A stretch of 64,000 nt of DNA from Bacteroidales bacterium (GTDB lineage: Bacteria; Bacteroidota; Bacteroidia; Bacteroidales; VadinHA17), in contig DAOOUQ010000003.1 in assembly GCA_035390825.1 (NCBI GenBank), forward strand, positions 105,268-169,267, in the 5' to 3' direction. The notes below the pieces were generated by a model that was given only the letters and a program-made list of their open reading frames with translations, was not told where the DNA came from and made no database searches. Position 1 is the first letter of the stretch. Every line of letters begins with the position of its first letter. Positions 29,061 to 43,968 of this stretch are shown here, one piece after another. Both the position numbers and the translations under genes were made by a program.

Positions 29061-29090
29061 AATAAGGGCATGTCATGGCATGCCCTTATT
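29061..29090. terminator. Bidirectional hairpin terminator between convergent genes
   Basis: Perfect 12-bp stem AATAAGGGCATG / CATGCCCTTATT with the 6-nt loop TCATGG. It sits between the SusD stop (29047) and the radical-SAM stop (29089). Confidence 0.7.
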
Positions 29091-30036
29091 AATCATCGCA
29101 TGTACATTTCACTTTAGGCAATAGCCTTTGCGTCAGGTTCATTTCGGTGATCCGGTCTGTTCTTGCCGTGTGACATTTGTCACACATGGAAAACAGCTTC
29201 AGATCCCAGGTATCAGCGAAAACACGCCCGGCCTGCTTTTCGATTCCATATTCAAGCACCTTTTCAAGGGATTTTATTCCCGGAGGGCTGAAAAAATCTC
29301 TCTCAGCAAGCTTTTCCATGGCCCCGTTTCCGCCTCTTACCGGAATGATCACACAGCATTCAACCCCTGCATCAAAAGCAAAGTCTACAGATCGTTCAGC
29401 CCAGAAAATACCATCACGCTCCGACATGAAAGGAGGTCGCAATAATATAAAAGCTCTTGTGAAAATATCATTGTCAAGCAAAAAGCTTACTGATCCTGTG
29501 AAATCATCAAGTGTCATCCTTTTATTGAGCTTTTCCAGCATGTTGATATTCACGCACTCGAGCCCGATTGCAACCTGAAGGTCAGTTTTTATCCTATCTC
29601 TGAATTCAAGGCTTTTTTCCCCTATGAATGCAGGATGGCTCTCCACAATGACAGTATGGAAACCTTTCAGGAGCGAGGCAATTTTCATATGTTCCTCATG
29701 AGGTATTGCCCCTGGATCGAAGAAGCTGCCGCTGTTATACAGTTTAATGTGCTTTACGGCTGGTGCCTGATTTAGGACCCACTCAATCTGGCCTGAAATC
29801 TGGCCATCCGTCAGAGTAAAATCAGTTGTATTCTTCCAAAGATCACACATGAGGCAGTGAAAAGGGCACTCCCTGTTTGTCAGAAAGATTGTAAGCACAT
29901 CTTCGGCATAACCTGAGGGTGAGAGCTCTTTTTCGACAATCCATGAATACGGCCTTGCAGGGTCAACCACGTTTTTTTCTCCCCTGCATGAAATAATCCA
30001 GCTATCCGAAATTCTTATTCCTCCCTCATCATTCAT
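29089..30036 (-). CDS. Radical SAM enzyme (TIGR01210/RaSEA-like by eye), with a C-terminal Cys cluster
   Basis: CxxxCxxC motif (NRECPFHCLMCDLW), a YNSGSFFD block, and C-terminal CDKCH...CTCDD. The longest ORF starts at 30117 (ATG). The ATG at 30036 gives an 8-nt overlap with the upstream gene (tATGAAtga), which suggests translational coupling. Confidence 0.8.
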   Translation of the reverse strand: MNDEGGIRISDSWIISCRGEKNVVDPARPYSWIVEKELSPSGYAEDVLTIFLTNRECPFHCLMCDLWKNTTDFTLTDGQISGQIEWVLNQAPAVKHIKLYNSGSFFDPGAIPHEEHMKIASLLKGFHTVIVESHPAFIGEKSLEFRDRIKTDLQVAIGLECVNINMLEKLNKRMTLDDFTGSVSFLLDNDIFTRAFILLRPPFMSERDGIFWAERSVDFAFDAGVECCVIIPVRGGNGAMEKLAERDFFSPPGIKSLEKVLEYGIEKQAGRVFADTWDLKLFSMCDKCHTARTDRITEMNLTQRLLPKVKCTCDD

Positions 30037-31354
30037 AACTGGAGTAGAACTCTTTTCGGTATGTAATTTCCTTTTCGGGGAAATGTTTTTTAAATGAATC
30101 AACAGGGGCTGCTCCATGCTGGAAACGCCTTTTCGGGAAAACCGGCATTGTCATACCTGTAATGGCTTTAACTCCTTCAGATACTATCTGCCCCTTGAGT
30201 TCGTACAGTTTCCTGTGATCCCATCCTGTGATTTCGATGAATGGTATGCCTTCAGATACCTCTATGACATTGGGAAGGGTATAAGGGCTGAAAGACTCAA
30301 AACCCAGGCTCTCTCCGGTAGAATATGTCCGCATGAATCCCCTGCTCAGGCCTCCCGAATACGTAAGCGAGTGTTTAATTGAGTCCACTCCCCATCCTTC
30401 ATGATAGAGCATGAGGTTATTCAGAACGCTTTTGATAGTGAGTTCCGGATTTTCTTCAATCGGATAATCCTTCAGATTTTCGTTTCCACCCTCCCCGTCG
30501 ACAATATATTTCCAATCGGGATAACGTAGTCTGATTCCTTTCATCAGAGCCAGGTTCATGGTGGCCGATTCAATATCAAGAGGCTTATAGTCTTCGACTA
30601 TCCTTACTGCTTTTTTCCAGTCAAGTGAAGAATAGCTGGCCTCTATAATTTCAAGGAACAAACCGAGTTCAAGATCATCGAGGAATTTTCTTGCCTGTGC
30701 AAGGTCTTCTCCGCCGCCGTCGACACTCAGGGTGAAAGCTTTCAGCCGTGAAGGGCTCTCCCCGAGTTCCTGCAACGCCTTGTAAACGAGCAGGAACAAT
30801 GCTCCGCTGTCGATGCCTGCAGAAAAAGTAACCCCTATGGGGCCAGAAACAGCCCTCAGCCTTAGCCATTTCTTTATTTCTTCGTACACGGCTCCAATGT
30901 ATTGTTCACCAATTTTTGCCGGATCGTTTGACAATTTGTTACGTTCGGGCCTGAAAAACCTCTGGTACACCGGATTGGGATCGGGACATCCGAGGAGTTC
31001 TATTTTTGTGACATAATGGGCAGGAACCATCCTTGTATACGAAGGATGAAACTGATGGCTGAGGCCTTCTTTCTTAAGGTAATCAAAAATAGTGTCAATC
31101 CTCTCGGCTATAACCAGTTCGGGGCCGCCGGGCCGTTTGGCAATGAAATACCTCATCGGACGTCCTATCGATCTGGCCATCCTTATTGTTTTTCCTTCCA
31201 CGGATACCAGTGAAAACTGACCGTCGATTTTCCTTACCCTTTCAGCATCTCCTGATCTCACACATTCTACTGCCTCCTCATGTGTCATGTTATAAATCAC
31301 ATTCTTTTCCGGATTTGTCAGATCAGTTACCTGGTTTACATATTGATTATTCAT
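30029..31354 (-). CDS. Asparagine synthetase B-like adenylating enzyme lacking the N-terminal glutaminase Cys (beta-lactam-synthetase-like architecture)
   Basis: 441 aa with a PP-loop-like motif (VTFSAGIDSGALF) and a degenerate GATase-2 remnant (IDGQFSLV). The N-terminus is MNNQ rather than MC. Confidence 0.72.
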   Translation of the reverse strand: MNNQYVNQVTDLTNPEKNVIYNMTHEEAVECVRSGDAERVRKIDGQFSLVSVEGKTIRMARSIGRPMRYFIAKRPGGPELVIAERIDTIFDYLKKEGLSHQFHPSYTRMVPAHYVTKIELLGCPDPNPVYQRFFRPERNKLSNDPAKIGEQYIGAVYEEIKKWLRLRAVSGPIGVTFSAGIDSGALFLLVYKALQELGESPSRLKAFTLSVDGGGEDLAQARKFLDDLELGLFLEIIEASYSSLDWKKAVRIVEDYKPLDIESATMNLALMKGIRLRYPDWKYIVDGEGGNENLKDYPIEENPELTIKSVLNNLMLYHEGWGVDSIKHSLTYSGGLSRGFMRTYSTGESLGFESFSPYTLPNVIEVSEGIPFIEITGWDHRKLYELKGQIVSEGVKAITGMTMPVFPKRRFQHGAAPVDSFKKHFPEKEITYRKEFYSSYE

Positions 31355-31465
31355 ATAGCATAGATTTAAGTTGGTTCATATTTAAATACTTTAAGTGCCC
31401 GGTGCACTTGAGGTACCTGGAGTTTATTTAAAGCACTCTGTACTTTAGCTCATCCGTACCTTCAT

Positions 31466-33160
31466 TTATATTATTCCTTTTCCCTGTTTTATCGTGATAT
31501 ACCTGTCAGCGGGTACATTCCTGTAAATTTCTTTCTGTCCGTCACTCCAGTGTATCTCAAGCGTATCAACAGATTTTGCATTTGCCAGACCTATATGTAT
31601 CCGTGGATCATTGTTTGAAAGATAGCTTGTTGCCCACTGGTTAACGAAAACCTGTCTTTTCCCTCCGGAAACCGCAACAACTTTTGCTGCTATTGCAGAG
31701 GACGGGCCGTTTTTGCCCTTCAGGTTAATACCCAGCCAGTGATTTGAATTGCCGCCATCATTCCTGAGCAGAGTTGCCGTTGCTTTCAGGTCAACGTGTG
31801 ATATAATAATATCCATATCACCGTCATTGTCATAATCCGAGACTGCCAGCCCCCTGCCTGACCGTTTCGTCGCGAAATAGGGACTGTATTTTTTCCCGGC
31901 ATCCGTGAAATGGCCCTTTCCGTCATTTTCAAGAAGAATGGGATACTGAAGGATCAGTTCTTCTGCTGTACCATTGGCAGAAACAATATCCTGATCACCG
32001 TCATTGTCAAAGTCAAGGAACGCGGCAGCCCAGGCGCCTTTTCCTGCGAGGGGGCCTGACACTCCGCTTGATTCCGTGATGTCCTCAAAGAATCCGTTCC
32101 CCAGGTTGCGGTATAGCGCGCCATATTCAAGATCAACGACGAGGATATCAAGAAGGCCGTCTCCGTCAACGTCTCCGACAGAACCGTGCATAGATCCGCT
32201 TCCTTTGCCCTGGCTGTTTGCCGCAACTCCAATTTCAACGCCGACTTCCTTAAAAGTCCCGTTGTCATTTCTGAACATGAAATTCAGCTGATGATCGTTA
32301 GCCTGAAAAATATCAATGTCGCCATCGTTGTCATAGTCAAAGACAGTGAGTCCCATGCATTTTGAATCGGGATAAAAGAGGTTGTTCTTCTGTGTCACGT
32401 CAACGAATTTTCCCCCCGGAGTCTGTTCATAAAGCATAGACGCCTGTCCTTTGTATTCAGAGGGATGAGGCATTATGTCGGGCGTGGCGGGCGTGAAATA
32501 ATCCGGATCGAAGGCAAGGAAGTTGCCAACCATTGCATCCAGTCTCCCGTCCATGTTATAATCCCAGAAGGAAACGCCGATGCTCCATTTTACAAAACCA
32601 TTAAGTTTTTCCGGACCTCTCAGGCCGAGCTGATCCGTAATATCTGTAAATGTCCCGTTGCCGTTATTCCTGAAAAACACATTCGGACCGTAATTAAGAA
32701 GATAAAGATCCTCGTCGCCATCATTATCATAATCTATTGCCCCTGCTGCCATGCTCCAGTTCAGGTCGCCAACTCCTGCATCAGCAGTTACATCAGTGAA
32801 AGTACCGTCACCATTGTTCCTGTACAGCCTGTCGGGTGTATTGGCGAATTTTCTGCCTTCTTTATCTGATACGCCATCGATATATGTTCCGTTAAGCATA
32901 TAAAGGTCCATCAGGCCGTCGGCGTTATAATCAAATACAGTCACTCCCGATCCGCTGCTCTCAAGGATGTTTTTGTACGAAAGGTCGCCGAATGTATACC
33001 TGAAATTGATTCCGGCTCTTTTTGTAACGTCAGTGAACTGTACAATTTTCTTCTGATCAGCTGAAGTGCAGAGAATCGTTACCAAGAGCACAACTAATGA
33101 ATACCTGAATCTCAAAATCTTCAAACATGAAACGGTTTTGTTGAATATTTCACCTGTCAT
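31466..33160 (-). CDS. CRTAC1-family protein (FG-GAP/VCBS repeats + ASPIC/UnbV C-terminal domain)
   Basis: 564 aa with repeated DxDxDGxxD Ca-binding loops (DYNADGLMDLY, DYDNDGDEDLY, DFDNDGDQDI, DYDNDGDMDI). The C-terminus HWLGINLKGKNG...NDPRIHIGLA...LEIHWSDG is ASPIC/UnbV-like. Confidence 0.85.
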   Translation of the reverse strand: MTGEIFNKTVSCLKILRFRYSLVVLLVTILCTSADQKKIVQFTDVTKRAGINFRYTFGDLSYKNILESSGSGVTVFDYNADGLMDLYMLNGTYIDGVSDKEGRKFANTPDRLYRNNGDGTFTDVTADAGVGDLNWSMAAGAIDYDNDGDEDLYLLNYGPNVFFRNNGNGTFTDITDQLGLRGPEKLNGFVKWSIGVSFWDYNMDGRLDAMVGNFLAFDPDYFTPATPDIMPHPSEYKGQASMLYEQTPGGKFVDVTQKNNLFYPDSKCMGLTVFDYDNDGDIDIFQANDHQLNFMFRNDNGTFKEVGVEIGVAANSQGKGSGSMHGSVGDVDGDGLLDILVVDLEYGALYRNLGNGFFEDITESSGVSGPLAGKGAWAAAFLDFDNDGDQDIVSANGTAEELILQYPILLENDGKGHFTDAGKKYSPYFATKRSGRGLAVSDYDNDGDMDIIISHVDLKATATLLRNDGGNSNHWLGINLKGKNGPSSAIAAKVVAVSGGKRQVFVNQWATSYLSNNDPRIHIGLANAKSVDTLEIHWSDGQKEIYRNVPADRYITIKQGKGII

Positions 33161-36100
33161 TTCCTCTCAGCGCATTAATGTATTCATTCCCGGTAACGAC
33201 TCGTGTGTTGTACTTTTTGTTGTATTCTCTTAGCTCTCTGCTGTCAGGATATGCATCCTCTGCCGAAGGCGGATAGTTTTTCATGCCATGGAAGGGCAGG
33301 GGCAGAACTGTATTCCCGAAAGCTGTATTGAGATCGCCATCTTTTACCCACCCTACACTATGTATGAGGAAATCCCGTTTCCAGCCTTCAGGGAGTGCAG
33401 GCAGATCTTTTTCACTGAACTCGATCGTAGTTTCATCTCCGGCGTTCGTTATGGCATATTGGTTATCCGGCTTTGTCAGAAGAGGCAAAACGTCCCCGAA
33501 TCGCGTATAATTGCCTGTGAGATCTCTCCATTTTGGCCCTTTCTCGACAGATGAATAATCAAACCAGTGGGGACCGTAACGGCCACCTTTCCTGTATAGT
33601 TTTGAAAATCCCCTGTAATGCAGGTCGGCCCGCAAAGGATCGATTACAGTGGTTACAGCAGGAATTCCGGGAACGGATGAGGCAAAGAAAATCTCATCCC
33701 AGTAAATCTGCATATTTGTCCTTATTCTTAACCTGTGGTCTTTTGTAATAAATTTCCCGGAAAGGTTAACTATAACCGTTTTGTCTTTCCCCATCGGGAA
33801 CCCTATGTTATCAGCTATTGTTTCCCATTCGCCTTTTTCGTTTACAGCCTGAATGACCGGGGGGTGTGATTCAGGCAAATCTGATTGTGCCATGGCAAAG
33901 TTTATGCTTGCATCTGTTGGGAATATCCATCCAGTCATGAATAAATAAAGATCGGGATTGTTTCCAGATTCGCCGGCATCAATAACTATGTCTCTCATTT
34001 CGGTTATTCCCTGGTATTTTCCTGTTTTAAAATCGGAGAGATATTTATCGTCTTTCTTTTCGATGAATGGAAGGATATCATTTCCTTCTCCATCGATTGC
34101 TGAAACAGGGGCTCTTTTACCATTGATCTTAATTATCTGAAGACCGGGAAATGGAGGAGGAGAGAACTGTTCAGGGACAAAAATATCCGAATTTGCCGGA
34201 TGGTCGACAGCAACCAGTTGTATCTGGTCAAGATAGATTGTCTCCCATAACTCCGAAGTAACCTGAATGGAGTATTTACCTTGTCTGGGTTTAAGTAACT
34301 CACCAGGGATCTTGATATAGTCGTCTGAGGCATCTGCAAAGGCATATGCCGTGTTCCCTCCCATGATACCTGTAGGCATTCCAAGTGCGCTTCTCCATAG
34401 AATATCCTTTACAAAGGTATACTCCTCACCGTTCCAGGTATAAAGGAAGGGACATGACCCTTTGAGAGTCTGTTCTTCGATCAGGGCCTGGTCTGAACCC
34501 GGCATGAAAATATTCTGAGGCACTCCGTTCGTCCATCTTATTCTTATAATGTCGGCTCTTGACCTGTTTCCTATTCCAAAATGAATATTTGGATCGGTTA
34601 CGACCAAAGTCTGGTAAAGATCTCCTGCCCTTACTTCAATTTTAGCTCCGATACCGAAGTGATTGTTTTTTGCGCTGCCTGCCTTCAGACCGACCAGTTT
34701 CATTGTAATGAAATGGTTGTTGTTGCCTCCATCGTTCCTTAAGAGAGTTACCCCGCCATTTGTACCTGCAACAACGGCATCAATGTCGCCGTCATCGTTA
34801 TAATCAAACAGGGTTATTTGTTTGCCGGAGTTAAGTTCCTGTGGCAAAAGTTGTGATACATCCCTGAAAATGCCATGGCCGTCGTTATATAAAAGGAACA
34901 TTGCTTTCCGGCCTTTTTCAACTGATTCGCCTGCAACCAACAGATCAAGAAATCCGTCATTGTTAAAGTCAAGGAATTTAGCATCATGCACTTTTATGGC
35001 ATCAAGTGCAGAGAATAGTTTTTCGTTTGACTTACTGGCCAGGAATTTTCCATCACGCTGGTTGACATAGAGGTTGTTTTTATTACCATTATCTGAACCA
35101 ATAAACAAGTCAAGGTATCCGTCATTGTTGAAATCACCGGCCGTAATTACAGATGCTCCCTTTAAATCTTGGAGGCCGCTGCCCTGAACAATATCCCTGT
35201 AAACACCCTGGCGCTGATTTGAGTAATATGCCGGAATTCCATCTTCATTCACAACGATGAAGTCGACATCCTCATCATCGTCAAAGTCTCCGAATACTGC
35301 ACCCCCTGGATGAATTGTCCCCGGCTGTTGTCCGAGCCGTTGCGACTGATCCTGAAACGTTCCGTCGCCTTCATTGCGGAGGTAGAGATTCCTGTCGCCG
35401 AGTATTTCCAATATATCGAGATCACCATCGTGATCCATATCAAATGCGAGGGCTGACCTTCCTCCTGTTCTGCTGCCGGCTCCTGATTGTGCCGTTACAT
35501 CTTCAAAAGTTCCCTTCCCGGTATTTTTGTAAAGGATATCGCCGCCTTCCGTCATTATGAAAAGGTCCTCATATCCGTCATTGTCAAAATCGGCAAAAAG
35601 AGCTGAGTTTTCTTTGCCTGAATGTTTAAGTCCGGCCGCCTTTGTCACGTCCGTAAATTTTCCCATCTCATTGTTGAGAAGGAAATGCCTGTATGTTGAT
35701 GAAGCTTTGTCATAGCTGCCTGCATATATATCTATATCTCCGTCGCCGTCGTAGTCGCAGGTCTCGACATGTGCAGAATAATCTGATCCCGGAGATCCGC
35801 TGCCCCCTGATGAGGATACTATATCCAAACCGGCAGCAGATGAAGCATCTGTGAATTTAATAACATCGAGAAGAGATTCATTTTCGACCGCCCGTGTTGA
35901 CGGCTGTCTGTCGAAAGTGATGACTGGGAATCCGATAAGTGAGCCTCCGGGTCCTTTCAGATCCATGATACCGGCCTGGTAGGGAGAGGTTACTTTCAGG
36001 TAGTTGTGAAAGATTGTATACTGGATCACAGCATTGTCTTTGTCCTTTTTTCTAAGGAGGGAAACTGTTTTGTTGTAATATTCTACGGCTTCCTTGGGGA

Positions 36101-36716
36101 ATTCAGGGAATTGCTTGTTAATGATCTCCATTTGTTCAAGTGCCTTGTCAAGTTCCCCGTTACGGATAAGAATATCGGTCAGGCTAAGCCGTGGGACCAG
36201 ATTGGCCGGAGCTTTTTCAACGAGTGTGTGCAGGTAATTTTCGCGCTGCCTTGCCGAACCTGAGTCAGGCATTGTAGAATAGAGTTCAGTGATCTCATAA
36301 AGGATCTTTAAATGCCCGGGAGCAAATTCGAGAGCCTTTTTCAGTTCGGAAACAGCCTTTTCCTTTTCATTGTTCATCTTAAATACTGTTGCCAGAATAA
36401 GTCTGACATCCGGATCCTGTGCATCGATTTTTATGGCCTTGTTAAGCTCTTTTTCTGCCTCGGGGTATTTCGCCATTCTCAGATAGGTAAGTCCGAGGTT
36501 GGCATATCCGAACTTATCTCCGGGCGCGAGGTCAATGAATTTCCTGAATTGCTGTTCCGCATCTTCAAGCTTAAACTCTTCAAGATAAGCAAGTCCGAGG
36601 GTTTTGACAGTGATAAGATCCGTCAGTTTGTCTCCTGATTTATTGCCGCCATTCCTGCATCCCCCGGATAAAATAACGCAGAAAGCGGCAAGAAGCAAAA
36701 TATTCCTGTTTTTCAT
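33150..36716 (-). CDS. TPR + FG-GAP/VCBS + ASPIC/UnbV lipoprotein with a ~480-aa uncharacterised C-terminal extension
   Basis: Lipobox (ILSGGC), N-terminal TPR-like repeats, multiple DxDxDG loops and an ASPIC block (NHFITMKLVG...IHFGIGN...IRIRWTNG), followed by a long unassigned tail. An alternative ATG at 36746 overlaps the upstream stop. Confidence 0.85.
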   Translation of the reverse strand: MKNRNILLLAAFCVILSGGCRNGGNKSGDKLTDLITVKTLGLAYLEEFKLEDAEQQFRKFIDLAPGDKFGYANLGLTYLRMAKYPEAEKELNKAIKIDAQDPDVRLILATVFKMNNEKEKAVSELKKALEFAPGHLKILYEITELYSTMPDSGSARQRENYLHTLVEKAPANLVPRLSLTDILIRNGELDKALEQMEIINKQFPEFPKEAVEYYNKTVSLLRKKDKDNAVIQYTIFHNYLKVTSPYQAGIMDLKGPGGSLIGFPVITFDRQPSTRAVENESLLDVIKFTDASSAAGLDIVSSSGGSGSPGSDYSAHVETCDYDGDGDIDIYAGSYDKASSTYRHFLLNNEMGKFTDVTKAAGLKHSGKENSALFADFDNDGYEDLFIMTEGGDILYKNTGKGTFEDVTAQSGAGSRTGGRSALAFDMDHDGDLDILEILGDRNLYLRNEGDGTFQDQSQRLGQQPGTIHPGGAVFGDFDDDEDVDFIVVNEDGIPAYYSNQRQGVYRDIVQGSGLQDLKGASVITAGDFNNDGYLDLFIGSDNGNKNNLYVNQRDGKFLASKSNEKLFSALDAIKVHDAKFLDFNNDGFLDLLVAGESVEKGRKAMFLLYNDGHGIFRDVSQLLPQELNSGKQITLFDYNDDGDIDAVVAGTNGGVTLLRNDGGNNNHFITMKLVGLKAGSAKNNHFGIGAKIEVRAGDLYQTLVVTDPNIHFGIGNRSRADIIRIRWTNGVPQNIFMPGSDQALIEEQTLKGSCPFLYTWNGEEYTFVKDILWRSALGMPTGIMGGNTAYAFADASDDYIKIPGELLKPRQGKYSIQVTSELWETIYLDQIQLVAVDHPANSDIFVPEQFSPPPFPGLQIIKINGKRAPVSAIDGEGNDILPFIEKKDDKYLSDFKTGKYQGITEMRDIVIDAGESGNNPDLYLFMTGWIFPTDASINFAMAQSDLPESHPPVIQAVNEKGEWETIADNIGFPMGKDKTVIVNLSGKFITKDHRLRIRTNMQIYWDEIFFASSVPGIPAVTTVIDPLRADLHYRGFSKLYRKGGRYGPHWFDYSSVEKGPKWRDLTGNYTRFGDVLPLLTKPDNQYAITNAGDETTIEFSEKDLPALPEGWKRDFLIHSVGWVKDGDLNTAFGNTVLPLPFHGMKNYPPSAEDAYPDSRELREYNKKYNTRVVTGNEYINALRGNDR

Positions 36717-36745
36717 AACATCAAAATTAGCAATAAAAGGGAACA

Positions 36746-37858
36746 TTATTCAGGTTTATAAGGAACTCCTTCCTTCAGTGTCATTATACCGAAATCTCCA
36801 ATTCTGTTACCTTTGTCATCGAAACTTATCCGGCCTGTAACACCACTATAGATCATGCTCTTCACTGTTTTCTGAATAAGCTCCCTGTCGTTAACTCCCG
36901 ATTTCTTTATTGCTTCAATAAGCAAGCCAGTGGCATCATACGAAAATGAAGCCATCATACCCGGAAATACTCCATATGTGACGAAGTAAGCTTTTTTAAA
37001 ATCATTATTTTCCTTATTGTTCCAGTTGCCTGATGCCACACGGATTTTATTGTCAAAAACCCCAATTTCAGCTGGGGTTAATATGTTCTCATTGGCAGCA
37101 AGAAGAGAAGAAAAAATATTAATCTCCGGTTTCTTTTCAGATAATATTTCCGTAATTACTTTTGAAATTTCCGGAGTGCAGAACAGAACGATGCATTCAG
37201 TCTCTGATTTAGCTATTTTCTCGGCAATCATTTCAGCATCATTTCCCGATTCAACTGTGTAGTAGAATGAGGGATCATGTTTCCCTGCAGCTTTTATTTC
37301 TTTCAGAAATGTAGCTGAAGCCATATCTGAGTCATAGTCTTTAGCGGAAACGACAGTTATCTTATTGAAACTATGTTTATTGTATATTGAGTAAATAATG
37401 GATCGGGCTTGCTGCCGGTCGGTCGGCACACAATTAAAAAACCAAGGTACAAAAGCCTGGGAAAGAGTAGGGTCAGAAGACCAGGCTGAAACATAAGGTA
37501 CTATTGATTTTGTCGCAGCCTGTTCAACAAGGTGGGCGTTCCTTCCGTCGTGGCAGCCTGTCAGAGCCCAAACTTTTTCCTCAAAAATAAGGTCTACAGC
37601 TTGTTTTGACCCTGTTCCCCAGGGTCCTTCCATCGATCTGACGATCAGGCTGAATTTTTTCCCGTTGAAACCACCTTCAAGGTTGGCCTTGCGTATTGCC
37701 AGTTCTGCTCCCCTGACAGCAGCCTCTGATTCTTTGTCCTGTATCAGCAGGCCTATTTTTATCGTATCATCCTTCCGGTCACCGCCGGGGAATGGCAAAG
37801 GTATATTAAAACCGGTCAGGGCCAGAAAAATGCCGGCAAGGAGTATAGGATAATTCAT
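36746..37858 (-). CDS. Type-I periplasmic binding protein (LivK/Peripla_BP_6-like), orphan
   Basis: 370 aa with a signal peptide and a LivK-like N-terminus (IKIGLLIQDKESEAAVRGAELAIRKAN). No ABC permease or ATPase gene is nearby. Confidence 0.72.
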   Translation of the reverse strand: MNYPILLAGIFLALTGFNIPLPFPGGDRKDDTIKIGLLIQDKESEAAVRGAELAIRKANLEGGFNGKKFSLIVRSMEGPWGTGSKQAVDLIFEEKVWALTGCHDGRNAHLVEQAATKSIVPYVSAWSSDPTLSQAFVPWFFNCVPTDRQQARSIIYSIYNKHSFNKITVVSAKDYDSDMASATFLKEIKAAGKHDPSFYYTVESGNDAEMIAEKIAKSETECIVLFCTPEISKVITEILSEKKPEINIFSSLLAANENILTPAEIGVFDNKIRVASGNWNNKENNDFKKAYFVTYGVFPGMMASFSYDATGLLIEAIKKSGVNDRELIQKTVKSMIYSGVTGRISFDDKGNRIGDFGIMTLKEGVPYKPE

Positions 37859-37877: not shown

Positions 37878-38762
37878 TCATATCAGTGAAGGTTCAGGTT
37901 TTGCTAGTTTCCTGCCGACTGCCCGTGCAATCTTGTCAAGGTCGGTCATCAGGGCAGAAAACTCTTCAGGGTTGATTGACTGGTGCCCGTCGCAAAGTGC
38001 CTCTTCAGGGTTATAATGGACTTCCATTATGAGACCGTCGGCACCGGCTGCTATGGCAGCTTTTGCCATTGTCGGAACCATCCATCGGAGGCCTGTGCCG
38101 TGGCTCGGATCGACTATTACCGGAAGATGGCTTAAATGCTTAAGCATGGGAACCGCACTGAGATCAAGTGTATTACGTGTAGTTGTTTCAAAAGTACGTA
38201 TGCCTCTTTCGCAGAGAACCACCTGGTCGTTACCCTGGCTAAGTATATATTCAGCGGCAAGCAGGAATTCTTCAATAGTTGCCATCATGCCCCTTTTGAG
38301 CAGAACAGGTTTTTTCTGCATTCCCACTTCCTTGAGCAGCACGAAATTCTGCATGTTTCTTGATCCGACCTGGAGCATGTCGGCATATTCAGAAACGAAT
38401 TCTACATGCCGTGTATCCATAACCTCCGTAACGAAAGGCAGTCCTGTTTCGAGACTGATCTCCTTAAGTAATTTTATGCCTTCACTTCCAAGGCCCTGAA
38501 AATTATAGGGAGAGGAACGTGGCTTAAAAGCGCCTCCCCTTAATATAAGCCCTCCTGATATTTTAACTGCATATGCAGTTTCTCTCAGCTGTTCAGAGCT
38601 TTCAACAGCACATGGACCGGCAATGACAACAACCCCGTTAGGACCGATTTTGAGTCCGCCCACATTTACCTCAGAGGCTTCGGAATTTGATCTCCTGCGA
38701 ACCTTGGAAGGCACTGAACATCCCCCTGATATTGACGGATCATTATTTCTGTTTGATTCCAT
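37878..38762 (-). CDS. aroF: 3-deoxy-7-phosphoheptulonate (DAHP) synthase, class I-beta, with a ~45-aa N-terminal extension
   Basis: Motifs [34 protein letters not shown] and VDPSHG are diagnostic of the KDO8PS-like DAHP synthase family. Confidence 0.88.
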
Positions 38763-38778: not shown

Positions 38779-40092
38779 CTATTGATAAGCCACCCTGGGT
38801 TTCTTATAAATTACATTTTCCTTTTCCCACCGCGGGGCAGGAGAGAAGTGAAATTTTCCGTTACTTACCTTTGCCAGGTAAATAGGCCTGATATTATTCC
38901 ATGTACCGTCAAAAACAACTTTGCCTGTTACACCCTGATAACCCTGGAAGGTTTTAAGGTCTGTCAGGATATCACGTATGAGAGCTCTGTTCAGGCCTGC
39001 TTTCCTGATGGCTTCAATTATTATATTCATGCCATCGTAAGCATGTGCCGCAAATACATCAGGTTCCATACCAAATCTCTCTCTGAATCTTTTTCTGAAA
39101 GCTATAAGAGCCGGGTCATTGGAGTCAGGGTTATACTGACATGTAGTTATTAAGCCCTCAGCGAGATTCCCAGTCTCTTTAAGGAATTTCTCGTTTACCA
39201 TTCTATCAGATCCGTAAACCGGCTGATTCAGGCCCATAGCTCTCAGCTGTTGAAGAATAAGTGCTGATTCTCTTGCATTACCCCATATGAGAACAGCATC
39301 AGGGGATGTCTTCTTTACTCTTTCGATCTGGGCCTTAAAATCAGATTCTCCGTCGCTGAATCTTTCTTCTATAATAATGGGGAAACCTATTCTTGTAGCT
39401 GAGCGGTTGAAATGAAGAGTCCCGACTCTGCCATAACGGTTGTTGGCTCTGATTACTGCAACGCGTTTATGTTTGTCTTTATTGAAGATCTGGTCAACAA
39501 GCACGTAGCTGCTTTGCCTGTCGTCGGGGATTGTCCTTATCACCCATGGAATATTTGTTTCGGTGAATGTCGGATCGGGATCACCTGTGTTAACATTGGG
39601 GATTTCGAGTTTCAGGGTAGCTCTTATTGCAACATGAGAAACAATGTCATCGATTGATCCCAGCCATGCCCATACTCCCTCGTCATCCATTTTTACAACC
39701 TCATTGGCTGCTGCTCCCCAAAGCCCGACATCATTATGGATCATAAGTTTGAACGGCATACCCTTGTAGCCTCCCTTTTTATTGGCTTCCTCTATTGCCA
39801 AAGTAGCTCCGTGAAGCATCTGTTCGCCAAGGTCCTGAATTATAGAACCCTCAAGAGGTCCGAGGAACCCTATCCTTACTTCTGTCAGATTGGTTGGAGG
39901 CAGTTTTTCACGACCGGCACCGTAGAATTTCATGGGTTCCAGAAAATGATATTTATAAGCCTTCATATACCTGTCATATGCTACTAGTTCATCAGGTATA
40001 TTACCATAATTTGAAGGTAATTGCTGCCCTGACAATATTGAACATGTTGTTGTCAGGATCAGGAATGTCAGAATCCGGTAATGGGTTTTCAT
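38779..40092 (-). CDS. Type-I periplasmic binding protein (LivK/Peripla_BP_6-like), orphan, second copy
   Basis: 437 aa with a signal peptide and LivK-like blocks ([12 protein letters not shown]...[14 protein letters not shown]). Confidence 0.72.
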
Positions 40093-40102
40093 ATTTTTTT
40101 GT

Positions 40103-40678
40103 TTAGTTTATTTTACTAATGGCATAAGTTTCAATCTCCACCAGAAGAGTTTCCCAGCATAATCTTGCCTGAATCCCTGTACTGGCAGGCAGGGGATCAA
40201 GATTCATCCATCGGAAAAATGATGTGCGTATCTTATTGAATTCCTCGTAATCCCTTTCAATATCCCTTAGGTAATTGGTTGTCCTGATCACATCATGCCA
40301 TGTCATACCTTCGGCTGAAAGAAGATTTGTGATATTCCTGTAAGTCCTCCAGGTCTGAGCTTTGAAATCACCTATATGCTCTGCCTTCCCTTCTTCATTG
40401 ACACTAGCTGTACCTGAAATTAAAAGGATTTTATAACCTCCCAGTTCCAGACGAAGGGCTCTTGTAAATGATGATGGTTTTTTATAATCATAAGCTTCAT
40501 TTATTACCTGCGGTGCATGTACCGCGAATTTTTCAACAGGAGGTCTTTCTGTATGAACGGCTGGATAGTTGTAATCTTTTAACGTCAAATCTTCTTTGAG
40601 AATCCCCAGTTTAATCATTTCAGCTTTCTCACCATCCGTGAGTTTTGTCAGATCTATCAACAGTTGTTTGTTATCCAT
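40103..40678 (-). CDS. YjgF/RidA-fold protein with a chorismatase-like ISGTASV motif
   Basis: Core sequence KILLISGTASVNEEGKAEHIGDFKAQTWRTYRNITNLL. The track start at 40717 is TTG; the first ATG (MDNKQ...) is at 40678. Confidence 0.62.
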   Translation of the reverse strand: MDNKQLLIDLTKLTDGEKAEMIKLGILKEDLTLKDYNYPAVHTERPPVEKFAVHAPQVINEAYDYKKPSSFTRALRLELGGYKILLISGTASVNEEGKAEHIGDFKAQTWRTYRNITNLLSAEGMTWHDVIRTTNYLRDIERDYEEFNKIRTSFFRWMNLDPLPASTGIQARLCWETLLVEIETYAISKIN

Positions 40679-40713
40679 TTTAGTTATATGATTTTTCTTA
40701 TTAAACAATATTC

Positions 40714-41901
40714 TCAATGTATTCTTTCACCCCTTGCCACTCCTTTTGAAGTTGCCACCCACAGGTAATCATCGCTGGCATCTACTCCGATAATAAAATT
40801 GTGGGAAATTGATGGCGACAAAGGAATCTCTTTCTTTTCACTCCCGTTTGTTATAATAGCTTTGCCGTTCTCATCATTATCATTTTTCTTATATGTTACC
40901 CATGTCTTCCCATCGAAGCTGCTTAATCCGTTATCGCTGCAGACAAATACCACCGGACCTTCAGCCCTGAGAAAGTTTATGAAATTGCTTGCCAATCCGC
41001 TGTCATGGTCAAAATAGCCTTTCCAGTTTTTGCCGTCATAGCGGCTCATTCCGAAATATGTTGAAACCCATAAGATACTGTCAGAATACGATGTTGCTGT
41101 TGTTATGTCATGGACAACTCCATCATCAGGCTGAAGGTCAATCTCCATGAAGCCATCGGGGTCAACATAATCCCTGAAATGTTTGGTTTGGGTATTGTAT
41201 TCAATAACCCCTCCGCCCCAAGCTGCTATCCATACTTTCCCATCTCCCGCCGATAATGCATATGTCCATGGTTCATGCATTGGTGCGTTCATTTCGGTGA
41301 ATATCTCCCACTGTTTTGTCCGGGTGTCATAATGGCCGGCCCCTCCTCCTGTTGCAACCCATATATCCTTTCCATAGCAAAATACATTGTATACCAGATC
41401 GTTTGGCATACCGCTGTTAAACTGATTGAATGTCTCAAATTTCCCTGATGACCAGCGACTAAGGCCACCAAGTGTTCCAATCCATACATCACCTGTAAGC
41501 TGGTCGACATCAATTGACACGATACCATTATGCGGGAGGCCGTCTTGTGTGGTGTATGTCTTCCATTTCCCATTCTGATATACGGCCAGGCCATCATGTG
41601 TTCCGACGAGAACCCGGTCACCATCAATCCTCACCGCATATGCTTTATCTGAAGGAAGTCCATCTTTTGTGGTAAAATTCTTCCAGTTTCCATAGACAGG
41701 CATTTCACCGGCTTCTTTTATCACATTGGAGCTACTTCCAGGGTACTTGTCAGAATTGTTGTGATAATCTGTGCTCTCTTTGAACTTCGCAGGGTTTAAA
41801 GCAAAAGTCGACTTTTCATTTTTAATGAAAAGAAATATTACCACAAGAACTATTCCGGCAGTAATCAGAATTGCAGCAAAATATTTGACTAAGTTTTTCA
41901 T
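40714..41901 (-). CDS. Membrane-anchored two-component-regulator-propeller (Reg_prop) repeat protein without an output domain
   Basis: 395 aa with an N-terminal TM helix and repeated GLPSDKAYAV.../DGLPHNGIVSIDVD...VWIGTLGGLSRW units, as found in the sensor domains of hybrid two-component systems. Confidence 0.7.
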   Translation of the reverse strand: MKNLVKYFAAILITAGIVLVVIFLFIKNEKSTFALNPAKFKESTDYHNNSDKYPGSSSNVIKEAGEMPVYGNWKNFTTKDGLPSDKAYAVRIDGDRVLVGTHDGLAVYQNGKWKTYTTQDGLPHNGIVSIDVDQLTGDVWIGTLGGLSRWSSGKFETFNQFNSGMPNDLVYNVFCYGKDIWVATGGGAGHYDTRTKQWEIFTEMNAPMHEPWTYALSAGDGKVWIAAWGGGVIEYNTQTKHFRDYVDPDGFMEIDLQPDDGVVHDITTATSYSDSILWVSTYFGMSRYDGKNWKGYFDHDSGLASNFINFLRAEGPVVFVCSDNGLSSFDGKTWVTYKKNDNDENGKAIITNGSEKKEIPLSPSISHNFIIGVDASDDYLWVATSKGVARGERIH

Positions 41902-41922: not shown

Positions 41923-43968
41923 TTATTTTTTTCGATGAAGAAATGACGCCTGGTGAATTTTTGTTTCTTTTTTGTTTTCATATTCAGGATCTCTGAGAGA
42001 TTTGAGATATTCTACCAACTCGTTGAGCTGTATCTTTGTAAGGTCATTTAATGATCCATGTTCCTCTGTTTTACCATAGATGGTCCATATCTCTTCAAGG
42101 GTTGCCGCACGTCCATCATGAAGGTAGGGTGGCGAAGCAAAAATATTATTAAGATGAGGAGTATCGAAAAGTATGGAGTCGTCTGTTGCAGCAAGAGTTC
42201 CAACACCGGCAGGCTTCATGTTTGTATAATATGGTGCCGGGTGGCAAGTGTTGCACCTGTTTGTAACAGGGATCTCATTTCCTTTATTGTCGTGCGTACG
42301 TTCAAAAATCTCCTTCCCGCGTTTCTGGGCTTCTGTAAGTTCCCCGTCTGGATTATACATAAGATTGGGAGGGTTTGGAATTCCTGTCATTATGTATGCA
42401 GTAAGCGCATCAAGATCCTTATAGCTGAAAGCCTCGGTACGGGTGAGGACGGTTGAGAACCGCATACCGTCCTGTTTATACACCGACTGGTTTTTCCCGT
42501 TCCATTTATAGGGAGGGGTATCCCCGATATTCCTCAACGACTGGGTATTTGTCATGTTCCTGCCCATATCCTTTGATGCCATGTTGTATGTAAGTCCATC
42601 CTCATGTGCGTCAGGATGGCATGTATAGCATGAATACTGGGTCTGAAAGGTACCTCCGGCGTTATTCAGCAGCCTTCGGCCGTGGCGTGCGACTGTTATT
42701 CTACCTGATCCTCCGAGGTGGATGGTGCCTTCTGACTCCAATGTCTCAGTATTTATGACAGCTATCCTGTCTTCAAGGTGCTCGGCAACATAAAGGGTTT
42801 TTCCGTCGGGCGAGAGCGACATCCCTTTGGGGTTAGCCCCGGTGGATATCCTTTTTATTACGATTCTGCTGCTTATCCCCAGGTGGTTTGCATACATTTC
42901 AAGCTTGTCATCTGTAATACCGCTTATGAGTCTTCTCACCGCATCAAGATCGACAACAGTGATTTTATCGACTCCCGAATGAGAGACAAATGCCTTTTTC
43001 CCATCTGGCGATATTGCTATGTCGAAAGGATCAGCATAATACGTATTAGGTTCATCCAAAAGAAGCTGAATTGTTCTTCCTGAAGGTTTGTTCTCAACAA
43101 TTCCTATGCCTTCAGTCATCATCCAGCCTCTTTCAACCTGTACTGTCGGAACATTGTTCTTTGGCCTTATCAAAGGGATTATTGCCAGGTCTCCTGACGG
43201 AGTGAATTCTACATTCTCCATCATATAGGCCGATTTAATGTCTCTCCTTTCGGATATCCTCTGGTTAAGGTCGTTAATACCTGTAAGTTCACACCTTATT
43301 GTATCTCCGTAAGGAGCTGAAAGAGTTCTTCTGCTTGTAACGTAAAGTAATGATCCATCATGGCTTTTACCGATCCCTGTCGGATTATTTCCGGCGGTAA
43401 GACGTTTTATTTCCTCACCAGTGGAAAGATCAATCACTGAAATATCCGATGAAAAGGAATTCACCGAATACAGGAATTTTTCGTCGGAACTAAGTGCCAG
43501 CCCTGCGGGTCCGCCTCCGGTCTTTAAGGTGTCTGTAACTTCATAGTTTTTAAGATCTATAACAGAAACGTTGTCGGACCATTGATTGCTCACATAGGCT
43601 TTGTTCCCTGATTTATCTATTATTACTGAATGGGGATGGATGCCGACCGGAATTTCTTCGGTAACTTTTTTTCTGTCATTATCGATAACCAGTAGTGAAT
43701 TTCCGTCTTCTGCTACTGCAAAGATTGATTTTCCGTCTTTTGACACTGCAAGGTTTAAAGGGGAATAATACTTTGCATTTACAATTCTGGCTACAGGGCC
43801 TGATTTAATGATGTACAGGTGACAGGAGCTGCATTTCAGAGGGTGGTCGTCAGTGGCTGTGATATAATTGACATGTTCCCTCGCCCATTTGTGGTACCGG
43901 GGATAAAAGATTAATCCAAGGACAGCTATTATCCCTGCCGGTATGATTATTTTCAGATATCCTTTCAT
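41923..43968 (-). CDS. Membrane-anchored tri-heme protein: CxxCH + YVTN beta-propeller + di-heme cytochrome c peroxidase/MauG domain
   Basis: 681 aa with an N-terminal TM helix. Heme motifs are CSSCH, CYTCH and CNTCH. There are YVTN-type repeats (SKDGKSIFAVAEDGNSLLVID, DKSGNKAYVSNQWSDNVSVIDL). CCP/MauG hallmarks are QSLRNIGDTPPY and PPYLHDGRAATLEEIW. Confidence 0.75.
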   Translation of the reverse strand: MKGYLKIIIPAGIIAVLGLIFYPRYHKWAREHVNYITATDDHPLKCSSCHLYIIKSGPVARIVNAKYYSPLNLAVSKDGKSIFAVAEDGNSLLVIDNDRKKVTEEIPVGIHPHSVIIDKSGNKAYVSNQWSDNVSVIDLKNYEVTDTLKTGGGPAGLALSSDEKFLYSVNSFSSDISVIDLSTGEEIKRLTAGNNPTGIGKSHDGSLLYVTSRRTLSAPYGDTIRCELTGINDLNQRISERRDIKSAYMMENVEFTPSGDLAIIPLIRPKNNVPTVQVERGWMMTEGIGIVENKPSGRTIQLLLDEPNTYYADPFDIAISPDGKKAFVSHSGVDKITVVDLDAVRRLISGITDDKLEMYANHLGISSRIVIKRISTGANPKGMSLSPDGKTLYVAEHLEDRIAVINTETLESEGTIHLGGSGRITVARHGRRLLNNAGGTFQTQYSCYTCHPDAHEDGLTYNMASKDMGRNMTNTQSLRNIGDTPPYKWNGKNQSVYKQDGMRFSTVLTRTEAFSYKDLDALTAYIMTGIPNPPNLMYNPDGELTEAQKRGKEIFERTHDNKGNEIPVTNRCNTCHPAPYYTNMKPAGVGTLAATDDSILFDTPHLNNIFASPPYLHDGRAATLEEIWTIYGKTEEHGSLNDLTKIQLNELVEYLKSLRDPEYENKKETKIHQASFLHRKK

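What the first reader, a model, noticed from the sequence alone, without database searches (positions are those of the whole stretch)
29089..31354. Translationally coupled AsnB-like adenylating enzyme (no glutaminase Cys) and a RaSEA/TIGR01210-like radical SAM enzyme
The 441-aa protein keeps the AsnB synthetase PP-loop (SAGIDSG) and a vestigial GATase-2 domain. It starts MNNQ rather than Met-Cys, which is the architecture of beta-lactam synthetase/CarA-type enzymes that adenylate a carboxylate without using glutamine. Its stop overlaps a plausible start of the radical SAM gene (tATGAAtga at 30029-30036). That gene has CPFHCLMC, YNSGSFFD and an extra C-terminal CxxCH...CxC cluster. In archaeosine synthesis a RaSEA radical SAM enzyme acts on an amide/amidine adduct made by a partner transferase, so an analogous two-step ligate-then-radical-rearrange chemistry is conceivable. 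The pair sits at the 3' end of the CRTAC1/heme block, separated from it by 111 nt containing only a weak hairpin (31393-31409).
Basis: partly seen in the sequence, partly recalled or inferred. Interest (0 to 1): 0.6.

Follow-up and report, generated by a model that had tools for sequence, protein, structure and literature searches.

The report
Orphan amide-ligase plus radical-SAM enzyme pair
Two overlapping genes encode an ATP-using ligase related to asparagine and beta-lactam synthetases, without the glutamine-splitting site, and a radical SAM enzyme related to the archaeal enzyme RaSEA. The pair is kept together across many bacterial phyla, matches no described pathway, and occurs only in genomes that also encode a particular secreted propeller protein.

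Summary
All the quoted motifs, the 8-nt ATGAATGA overlap and the 111-nt upstream gap are present.

- **Ligase (441 aa).** It is Cys-less and has two domains. Its confident model is closest to beta-lactam synthetase, then ASNS, CarA and AsnB.
- **Radical SAM enzyme (315 aa).** It aligns over almost the full RaSEA model (TIGR01210) but scores 107 bits against a cut-off of 212. Its fold is closest to the Elp3 radical SAM domain. It carries a conserved C-terminal CxxC...CxC motif.
- **Pairing.** The radical SAM gene lies directly downstream of the ligase in 68 of 80 loci from at least eight phyla.
- **Two contexts.** The wider form is a trio with a QhpG/halogenase-like flavoprotein. The window belongs to one derived clade that lacks that flavoprotein. 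This clade sits inside operons for CRTAC1-like proteins and hydrazine-synthase-like haem proteins.
- **Co-occurrence.** All 42 distinct ligase-positive genomes tested also encode the C-terminal domain of the neighbouring 1198-aa CRTAC1-like lipoprotein. Many Planctomycetota have that domain without the pair.

No conserved precursor peptide, defence-system match or paper was found. Substrate and chemistry remain inferred. My best reading is adenylation of a carboxylate, probably on a shikimate-derived small molecule, then C-N bond formation and a radical step.

The parts
30029..31354 (-). AsnB / beta-lactam-synthetase-like ATP-dependent ligase, 441 aa. It has no N-terminal Cys and no signal peptide.
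   Evidence: Pfam PF00733 E 7e-8 over residues 171-303. PP-loop F177-S-x-G-x-D-S-G184, D286-G-(D/E)-G-G-(D/N)-E-N293 and G122-C-P-D-P-N-P128 are invariant or nearly invariant in 46 sequences. AF2 model pLDDT 88.8. Top PDB fold match is beta-lactam synthetase 1mc1.
29089..30036 (-). RaSEA/Elp3-like radical SAM enzyme, 315 aa, with CX3CX2C (C57, C61, C64) and a C-terminal CxxC...CxC motif (C285, C288, C311, C313).
   Evidence: TIGR01210 107.5 bits against a cut-off of 212. The public gene call is 315 aa and 100% identical. AF2 pLDDT 94.7. Top fold matches are the Elp3 radical SAM domain and PFL activase.
30029..30036 (-). 8-nt overlap ATGAATGA: the radical SAM start codon overlaps the ligase stop codon, which suggests translational coupling.
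   Evidence: Sequence. The same overlap occurs in 46 of 68 loci.
29064..29087 (-). Perfect 9-bp hairpin (AAGGGCATG / CATGCCCTT, 6-nt loop) followed by ATTTTGCATCTTT. It starts 2 nt after the radical SAM stop codon and lies between convergent genes, so it is a likely terminator.
   Evidence: Read from the sequence. The consensus scan did not flag it.
31355..31465 (-). 111-nt spacer between the FG-GAP/ASPIC gene and the ligase gene. No terminator-like site was found on this strand.
33150..36746 (-). 1198-aa TPR + FG-GAP + UnbV/ASPIC (CRTAC1-like) lipoprotein. Its C-terminal ~440-aa domain (33153-34469) matches no family and co-occurs genome-wide with the pair.
   Evidence: Pfam domains. The C-domain has no significant Pfam match (best E 0.2) and no PDB sequence match. 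Co-occurrence is 17/17 against 2/284 in Bacteroidota, 20/20 in other genomes and 6/6 in a Planctomycetota sample.
31466..33160 (-). 564-aa FG-GAP/ASPIC protein immediately upstream of the pair.
   Evidence: Pfam domains. A member of this family lies directly upstream of the ligase gene in 41 of 80 related loci.
37878..38762 (-). DAHP synthase in the same operon, a possible supply of a shikimate-derived precursor.
   Evidence: NF006421 437.7 bits, above its cut-off. Present in 15 of 80 loci near the pair.
40103..40717 (-). RidA/YjgF-family protein with weak chorismatase (FkbO/Hyg5) similarity, in the same operon.
   Evidence: Pfam PF01042 E 9e-16; TIGR04444 26.5 bits, below its cut-off. Present in 20 of 80 loci.

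Best explanation
This is an uncharacterised two-enzyme module of the cytoplasm, not an asparagine synthetase and not an archaeosine enzyme.

Shown:
- An AsnB / beta-lactam-synthetase-fold ligase keeps the ATP pyrophosphatase (PP-loop) site but has no glutaminase nucleophile.
- It is translationally coupled to a radical SAM enzyme that is a bacterial sister of RaSEA.
- The two are inherited together across phyla.
- The window's copy belongs to a derived clade that lacks the flavoprotein of the more widespread trio and is embedded in CRTAC1-like / hydrazine-synthase-like operons.
- The pair occurs only in genomes that also encode the C-terminal domain of the 1198-aa CRTAC1-like lipoprotein.

Inferred mechanism:
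1. The ligase adenylates a carboxylate on a small molecule, probably aromatic and shikimate-derived.
2. A nitrogen nucleophile that does not come from glutamine attacks the adenylate and forms a C-N bond.
3. The radical SAM enzyme, probably bound to the ligase as RaSEA is bound to ArcS, abstracts a hydrogen from that adduct. It then cleaves or rearranges it.
4. The product serves the pathway that the exported CRTAC1-like protein belongs to. In this clade that pathway also includes the periplasmic haem enzyme.
For: Fold and motifs.
- The acid at position 288 aligns with the Glu of GEGSDE in ASNS.

Coupling:
- The radical SAM gene is directly downstream in 68 of 80 loci.
- The 8-nt overlap occurs in 46 of 68 loci.
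- Where the two genes are unlinked, the radical SAM gene is elsewhere in the genome in 5 of 6 cases.
- A 46%-identical relative is also followed by a TIGR01210-like gene.

Context:
- The pair is at the 3' end of the operon in Bacteroidales and Flavobacteriaceae, and between FG-GAP and haem genes in another gene order. The linkage therefore survives rearrangement.
- The ligases of both gene orders form one clade.

Aromatic hint:
- The neighbours include DAHP synthase and RidA/chorismatase-like genes. An FkbO/Hyg5-like chorismatase lies next to the pair in L044, L056, L065 and L066.
- In the trio form the third gene is a flavin monooxygenase/halogenase-family protein.

Co-occurrence with the CRTAC1-like C-domain. 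Fisher p is 7e-26 for Bacteroidota genomes, 2e-12 for genera and 4e-4 for Planctomycetota.

RaSEA is active only in complex with its transferase partner (PMC11298593).
Against: - No substrate, product or activity is known for any member. The chemistry rests on homology at 10-18% identity to solved structures.
- The radical SAM enzyme scores at half the RaSEA cut-off, so its reaction may be quite different.
- DAHP synthase and chorismatase-like genes accompany only part of the family, and the flavoprotein is absent here. The 'aromatic' inference is therefore indirect.
- Fifty-one Planctomycetota genomes carry the CRTAC1-like C-domain without the pair, so the link runs one way and its direction is not settled.
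Confidence: 0.45

Rival explanations
1. Protein maturase. The pair, together with the flavoprotein in the trio form, modifies the CRTAC1-like lipoprotein or another exported protein of the operon in the cytoplasm before export. This is how QhpD and QhpG mature the quinohaemoprotein amine dehydrogenase gamma subunit, and how anaerobic sulfatase-maturating radical SAM enzymes act on sulfatases.
For: - The pair occurs only in genomes that have the CRTAC1-like C-domain, often at an unlinked site.
- The trio's flavoprotein matches QhpG best (80 bits) and also GoxB and LodB, which are protein-Trp maturases.
- PFL activase, a protein-directed radical SAM enzyme, is among the top fold matches.
- In the only Bacteroidota genus with the C-domain but no pair, a Trp present in 49 of 53 pair-bearing sequences (W1122) is Gln.
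- The ligase is unusually conserved: 59-62% identity between phyla.
Against: - Fifty-one of 195 pair-less Planctomycetota genomes and one Bacteroidota genus carry the C-domain without the pair. The protein family therefore does not generally need it.
- The QhpG match is far below its cut-off of 240 bits.
- DAHP synthase and chorismatase-like neighbours point to a small molecule.
- The W1122 difference comes from one lineage and is one of three changes in 80 conserved columns.
Confidence: 0.2
2. Beta-lactam-type ring closure. The ligase adenylates a carboxylate and closes an intramolecular amide, as beta-lactam synthetase and CarA do. The radical SAM enzyme then tailors the ring, as in carbapenem clusters that combine a CarA-like enzyme with radical SAM enzymes (that combination is from my own knowledge).
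For: - Beta-lactam synthetase is the best structural match, and CarA is also matched over the full length.
- The ligase has no glutaminase nucleophile.
- In the trio form the module has no obvious partner that would supply an amine.
Against: - The TM-score is only 0.6-0.65 at 10-18% identity, and ASNS and AsnB score about the same.
- The 80 loci contain no conserved neighbour resembling the other clavam or carbapenem enzymes.
- The radical SAM enzyme has no cobalamin domain. Its matches to TokK are limited to the core.
Confidence: 0.1
3. Nucleic-acid modification. The pair is a bacterial counterpart of ArcS-RaSEA and acts on a tRNA or DNA base.
For: The closest named relatives of the radical SAM enzyme, RaSEA and Elp3, act on tRNA. 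PP-loop enzymes include several tRNA-modifying enzymes (from my own knowledge).
Against: - The distribution is patchy: 17 of 301 Bacteroidota and 6 of 201 Planctomycetota genomes.
- The pair is tied to exported propeller proteins and embedded in an operon of periplasmic proteins.
- No tRNA-guanine transglycosylase-like or ArcS-like gene recurs among the neighbours.
- TIGR01210 is not met at its cut-off.
Confidence: 0.05
4. RiPP biosynthesis. The ligase acts like a lasso-peptide cyclase on a ribosomal peptide, and the radical SAM enzyme cross-links it.
For: Lasso cyclases are Cys-less AsnB homologues (from my own knowledge). RiPP maturases SuiB and SkfB appear among the weaker fold matches.
Against: - No small intergenic ORF is conserved next to the pair in 80 loci.
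- No conserved protease, RRE or exporter is present.
- There is no SPASM domain.
Confidence: 0.05

Closest known systems
ArcS-RaSEA archaeosine synthase complex (Euryarchaeota; RaSEA = TIGR01210)
   Same: - A C-N bond-forming transferase is paired with a small radical SAM enzyme.
- The radical SAM enzyme here aligns to nearly the whole TIGR01210 model.
- RaSEA works only in a complex with its partner. The 8-nt gene overlap here suggests a similar 1:1 complex.
   Different: - The partner has an AsnB/PP-loop fold and is not ArcS/TGT-like.
- The score is half the family cut-off.
- The host is a bacterium, and the context is an operon of exported proteins, not tRNA genes.
- The enzyme has an extra C-terminal four-Cys motif. 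I did not check whether RaSEA has one.
Beta-lactam synthetase and carbapenam synthetase (PDB 1mc1, 1q15)
   Same: They are the best full-length structural matches. They share the two-domain AsnB fold with an N-domain that has no catalytic Cys, and they are ATP/PP-loop adenylating enzymes.
   Different: - Identity is 10-18%, and there is no sequence-level PDB hit.
- The protein is shorter: 441 aa against about 500.
- No clavam or carbapenem pathway genes lie nearby.
- The catalytic Tyr/Glu/Lys residues were not mapped.
Asparagine synthetase B / human ASNS (PF00733, TIGR01536)
   Same: The PP-loop SGGxDS and the GEGSDE-type acidic motif align. Pfam PF00733 matches above its cut-off.
   Different: - There is no Cys nucleophile.
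- TIGR01536 scores 29.7 bits against a cut-off of 267.
- The N-domain is shortened to about 140 residues.
HZS-homologue gene clusters, 'clade III' of Hagglund et al. 2025 (PMC12758564)
   Same: The window's upstream genes fit that description: an FG-GAP/CRTAC1-like gene, an alpha-like gene, a beta-gamma-like gene and two binding-protein genes.
   Different: The main text of the paper does not contain 'asparagine' or 'radical SAM'. The pair is also far more widespread than these clusters.
QhpD/QhpG maturation of quinohaemoprotein amine dehydrogenase
   Same: A radical SAM enzyme plus a QhpG-like flavoprotein (present in the trio form) is associated with an exported redox or propeller protein.
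   Different: - The QhpG match is far below its cut-off, and this window has no flavoprotein.
- The radical SAM enzyme is not of the SPASM type.
- QHNDH maturation involves no AsnB-like ligase.

Membership tests
Glutamine-hydrolysing asparagine synthetase (AsnB, TIGR01536) | N-terminal Cys nucleophile directly after the initiator Met | tested here: not met
   The protein starts MNNQY. No start codon lies upstream in frame. No Cys is present in 46 homologues.
Glutamine-hydrolysing asparagine synthetase (AsnB, TIGR01536) | Score at or above the curated cut-off of the equivalog model | tested here: not met
   29.7 bits against 267.1.
Glutamine-hydrolysing asparagine synthetase (AsnB, TIGR01536) | PP-loop SGGxDS and the acidic GEGSDE-type motif of the synthetase site | tested here: met
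   S178-x-G-x-D-S183 is invariant. G287-(D/E)-G-G-(D/N)-E292 aligns with GEGSDE of ASNS.
Beta-lactam synthetase / carbapenam synthetase | Two-domain AsnB fold with a non-catalytic N-domain | tested here: met
   1mc1_A: E 7.5e-14, TMq 0.65, 447 aligned columns. 1q19 (CarA): E 1.1e-10.
Beta-lactam synthetase / carbapenam synthetase | Catalytic Tyr-Glu dyad and Lys for ring closure | not tested
   No residue-level structural alignment was available.
Beta-lactam synthetase / carbapenam synthetase | Clavam or carbapenem pathway genes in the neighbourhood | tested here: not met
   The recurrent neighbour clusters are FG-GAP proteins, binding proteins, HZS-like proteins, DAHP synthase, RidA-like proteins and, in other lineages, the flavoprotein.
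RaSEA (TIGR01210) | Radical SAM CX3CX2C motif | tested here: met
   C57, C61 and C64 are invariant in 43 sequences.
RaSEA (TIGR01210) | Score at or above the curated cut-off | tested here: not met
   107.5 bits against 212.15, although the alignment is near full length.
RaSEA (TIGR01210) | Partner ArcS and a tRNA-preQ0-Lys substrate | tested here: not met
   The adjacent partner is the AsnB-like ligase in 68 of 80 loci. The substrate cannot be tested with these tools.
Lasso-peptide / RiPP system | Precursor peptide gene plus leader protease or RRE next to the AsnB-like cyclase | tested here: not met
   No conserved small intergenic ORF. No such neighbour clusters.
HZS-homologue cluster, clade III (PMC12758564) | Alpha-like gene upstream of the beta-gamma-like gene, FG-GAP gene upstream, two binding-protein genes downstream | tested here: met
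   Window genes are 45431-47092 (FG-GAP), 43971-45407 (hydrazine_alpha, 118 bits), 41923-43968 (hydrazine_BC, 236 bits), and 38779-40092 and 36746-37858 (Peripla_BP_6-type). All scores are below the equivalog cut-offs.
Anti-phage defence systems (PADLOC) | Match to any defence protein model | tested here: not met
   Only a weak PP-loop match to DndC (E 0.004). Nothing matched the radical SAM enzyme.

The most novel reading that the evidence does not exclude
A radical SAM enzyme has taken over the role of the lost glutaminase domain. The ligase would attach a whole amine donor to the adenylated carboxylate. That donor could be an amino acid, or in this clade a hydroxylamine- or hydrazine-type nucleophile made by the neighbouring haem enzyme. 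The RaSEA-like enzyme would then cut the donor off by radical C-N cleavage. The result would be a glutamine-independent route to an amide-type product that serves the CRTAC1-like / haem system as a ligand or cofactor.
Probability: 0.15. Interest if true: 0.8.

Novelty: new variant of a known kind. Interest (0 to 1): 0.6.

Why it matters
- **The pair itself.** Both proteins belong to well-studied enzyme superfamilies. The pairing is nevertheless conserved at 59-62% ligase identity from Bacteroidota to Planctomycetota, and I found no description of it. It would be the second example, after ArcS-RaSEA, of a C-N ligase working with a RaSEA-type radical enzyme, and the first in bacteria.
- **A handle on two mysteries.** Bacterial CRTAC1-like propeller proteins and the non-anammox relatives of hydrazine synthase both have unknown functions. 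The pair is the clearest cytoplasmic enzymatic handle on both.
- **Testability.** Cultured carriers exist (Lutibacter citreus, Lutimonas saemankumensis, Novipirellula rosea), so the question can be tested directly.

Tried and rejected
- **PF18582 as a marker.** I tried the HZS_alpha domain as a marker for the haem operon. It is a promiscuous domain with up to 37 copies per genome, and it also rings in Bacteroides thetaiotaomicron. Only reading-frame size separated the true alpha-like genes.
- **PDB sequence searches.** Single sequences found nothing useful. Profiles found only the AsnB/ASNS PP-loop region for the ligase, and nothing significant for the radical SAM enzyme (best E 0.45).
- **CRTAC1-like C-domain.** Pfam and PDB sequence searches gave nothing.
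- **Precursor peptides.** A first pass returned only alternative frames of the coding genes. After masking the long ORFs, nothing conserved lay next to the pair.
- **PADLOC.** No match.
- **Literature.** No paper contains 'TIGR01210'. No relevant paper combines CRTAC1/FG-GAP/UnbV with 'radical SAM' or 'asparagine synth'. The HZS-homologue paper mentions neither enzyme.
- **Binding-protein families.** They were not discriminating: weak matches to branched-chain amino acid and urea binding proteins.
- **Rejected idea.** The pair is not a dedicated accessory of the haem enzyme. Among the 17 ligase-positive Bacteroidota genomes, only G000 and G200 have a roughly 480-aa alpha-like frame. One more, G076, has only a sub-cut-off match in a 273-aa frame.
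Full report
**1. Observation**

Both genes are on the minus strand.

The 441-aa protein is encoded at 30029-31354.
- It starts MNNQY and carries FSAGIDSG.
- Upstream in frame there are only seven codons before a stop, and none is a start codon (open frame 448 aa). No Met-Cys start is therefore possible.
- None of 46 homologues has an N-terminal Cys.

The radical SAM gene is best read from the ATG at 30036, giving 315 aa.
- This is the public gene call, at 100% identity.
- It overlaps the ligase stop codon (TGA, 30029-30031) by 8 nt, as ATGAATGA.
- CPFHCLMC, YNSGSFFD and CDKCH...CTC are all present.

The 111-nt upstream gap holds only a 4-bp hairpin. No terminator-like site was found on this strand. 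A perfect 9-bp hairpin follows the radical SAM stop codon at 29064-29087.

**2. What the two proteins are**

Ligase:
- Pfam Asn_synthase matches at E 7e-8 over the PP-loop region. TIGR01536 scores 29.7 bits against a cut-off of 267.
- There is no sequence-level PDB hit. A family profile finds only ASNS and AsnB, at E 5e-4. In that alignment SGGxDS and GEGSDE line up with S178-G-x-D-S and G287-(D/E)-G-G-(D/N)-E.
- A confident AF2 model (pLDDT 88.8) matches beta-lactam synthetase best (TM 0.65, E 7.5e-14). ASNS, CarA, AsnB and the hydroxyamidotransferase TsnB9 follow. All these alignments cover about the whole length, so a shortened N-terminal Ntn-type domain is retained.
- The only invariant Cys is C123, in GCPDPNP.

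Radical SAM enzyme:
- No Pfam family reaches E 0.01 for the window's protein.
- TIGR01210 (RaSEA) scores 107.5 bits over model positions 9-295 of 313, against a cut-off of 212.
- The model (pLDDT 94.7) matches the Elp3 radical SAM domain best, then PFL activase and MgmA.
- C57, C61 and C64 are invariant. C285 and C288 are 95% conserved. C311 and C313 are conserved in all rows that cover them.

Neither protein has a hydrophobic N-terminus, so both are cytoplasmic (by inspection).

**3. Distribution and pairing**

- Both proteins have thousands of close homologues, named only 'asparagine synthase-related' or 'radical SAM TIGR01210 family'.
- At the 50% clustering level the ligase family is compact: 733 hits, of which 168 are below 1e-30.
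- A genome scan gave 80 loci with 59-92% ligase identity. They come from Bacteroidota (including cultured Lutibacter citreus and Lutimonas saemankumensis), Chlorobiota, Calditrichota, Fidelibacterota, Planctomycetota (including Novipirellula rosea), Verrucomicrobiota, Rhodothermota and Balneolota.
- The radical SAM gene is directly downstream in 68 of 80 loci. The 8-nt overlap occurs in 46 of those 68.
- In six genomes where the ligase stands alone, the radical SAM gene is elsewhere in five.
- A 46%-identical relative is also followed by a TIGR01210-like gene. A 37% relative instead has a 782-aa partner of unknown family and sits next to an ABC importer.
- The pair is patchy: 17 of 301 Bacteroidota genomes (8 of 144 genera) and 6 of 201 Planctomycetota genomes.

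**4. Context**

There are three arrangements.
- **A.** Bacteroidales and Flavobacteriaceae, including the window: HZS-like genes, a RidA-like gene, a binding-protein gene, DAHP synthase (in some), a second binding-protein gene, the 1198-aa CRTAC1-like gene, a 564-aa FG-GAP gene, then the ligase and the radical SAM gene.
- **B.** FG-GAP gene, ligase, radical SAM gene, FG-GAP gene, HZS alpha-like gene, beta-gamma-like gene and so on. Some loci have an FkbO/Hyg5-like chorismatase gene nearby.
- **C.** Ligase, radical SAM gene, then a roughly 500-aa flavoprotein. Its best NCBIfam matches are QhpG, CmlS, GoxB and LodB, all sub-threshold. No haem genes were found within 20 kb in ten Bacteroidota genomes.

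On the ligase tree, A and B form one clade (SH-aLRT 89, inner node 98) among type-C sequences. The tree does not follow the species tree.

The flavoprotein is absent from the window's genome and from four other genomes of the A/B clade. It is present in the positive controls.

Among the 17 ligase-positive Bacteroidota genomes, only G000 and G200 have a roughly 480-aa HZS alpha-like frame. G076 has only a sub-cut-off match in a 273-aa frame.

**5. The constant companion**

Two earlier notes of this scan gave the lead, so I tested the C-terminal 439 residues of the 1198-aa protein. This region has no significant Pfam match and no PDB sequence match.
- **Bacteroidota.** All 17 ligase-positive genomes have it at E <= 1e-89, often megabases from the pair. 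Only 2 of 284 ligase-negative genomes have it. Those two belong to one genus and have no match to either the ligase or the radical SAM gene. Fisher p is 7e-26 by genome and 2e-12 by genus.
- **Other genomes.** 20 of 20 further ligase-positive genomes have it. Most are from other phyla; three are further Bacteroidota.
- **Planctomycetota sample.** 6 of 6 ligase-positive genomes have it, but so do 51 of 195 ligase-negative ones (p 4e-4).

G301 appears in two of these sets, so the total is 42 distinct ligase-positive genomes. The dependence therefore runs one way: the pair occurs only where this protein family is present, and not the reverse.

In the pair-less Bacteroidota genus the domain keeps 77 of 80 conserved positions, and W1122 is Gln. 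This is a lead only.

**6. Interpretation**

The PP-loop and the acidic motif argue for adenylation of a carboxylate. The missing Cys argues for a nitrogen source other than glutamine, or for an intramolecular attack.

The tight coupling to a RaSEA-like enzyme suggests that the radical step acts on the ligase's product. This fits the fact that RaSEA works only in complex with its transferase.

A small aromatic substrate is suggested by three kinds of neighbour: DAHP synthase, chorismatase-like genes and an aromatic-type flavoprotein. None of this is shown.

The main rival is maturation of the CRTAC1-like protein. I give lower weight to a beta-lactam-type closure, a nucleic-acid modification and a RiPP. 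No conserved small ORF lies next to the pair, and there is no defence-system match.

**7. Novelty**

No paper in the library mentions TIGR01210 or this gene combination. The paper on HZS homologues mentions neither enzyme in its main text.

Several earlier agents of this scan described the same pair or trio in other genomes. My results agree with theirs. They add that the CRTAC1 link is one-directional, and that the window's form is a derived clade without the flavoprotein.

Noticed in passing
window 29064-29087: A perfect 9-bp hairpin lies between the convergent SusD-like gene (ends 29047) and the radical SAM gene (ends 29089). It could terminate both. The consensus terminator scan missed it.
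   Followed up: partly
window 33153-34469 (minus strand): The roughly 440-aa C-terminal domain of the 1198-aa CRTAC1-like lipoprotein has no Pfam or PDB sequence match. About 80 positions are conserved in at least 92% of 53 sequences, including C765 and eight Trp. The domain is present in 57 of 201 sampled Planctomycetota genomes.
   Followed up: partly
L119 and L120 (G300, G284): The only Bacteroidota genus with the CRTAC1-like C-domain but without the pair has Gln in place of W1122, which is Trp in 49 of 53 pair-bearing sequences.
   Followed up: partly
L116:3144-13654: A 37%-identical relative of the ligase overlaps by 8 nt a 782-aa protein that matches no family. Upstream lies a complete ABC importer with a UrtA-like binding protein. 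Downstream lies a sigma-54 activator.
   Followed up: partly
L081:10001-11326 and L063:10001-11176: In one Bacteroidia MAG the ligase gene has three in-frame stop codons. In another MAG the match ends at residue 391 and no radical SAM gene follows. These may be pseudogenes or assembly errors.
   Followed up: no
L114 and L098: Contigs labelled Bifidobacteriaceae and Candidatus Kuenenia carry ligases that nest within Verrucomicrobiota and Planctomycetaceae clades. They are probably mis-binned contigs or recent transfers.
   Followed up: no
G306, G305, G304 (whole genomes): The Pfam HZS_alpha middle domain (PF18582) occurs 9-37 times per genome in large open frames of 350-1430 aa in some Planctomycetota and Verrucomicrobiota. 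It also rings in Bacteroides thetaiotaomicron. It is therefore not specific to hydrazine-synthase relatives.
   Followed up: partly
L065:8052-9182; L044:3380-4555; L056:6758-7927; L066:2450-3568: An FkbO/Hyg5-like chorismatase gene (TIGR04444 126 bits, below its cut-off; Pfam N-domain above its cut-off) lies next to or near the pair in four loci.
   Followed up: partly
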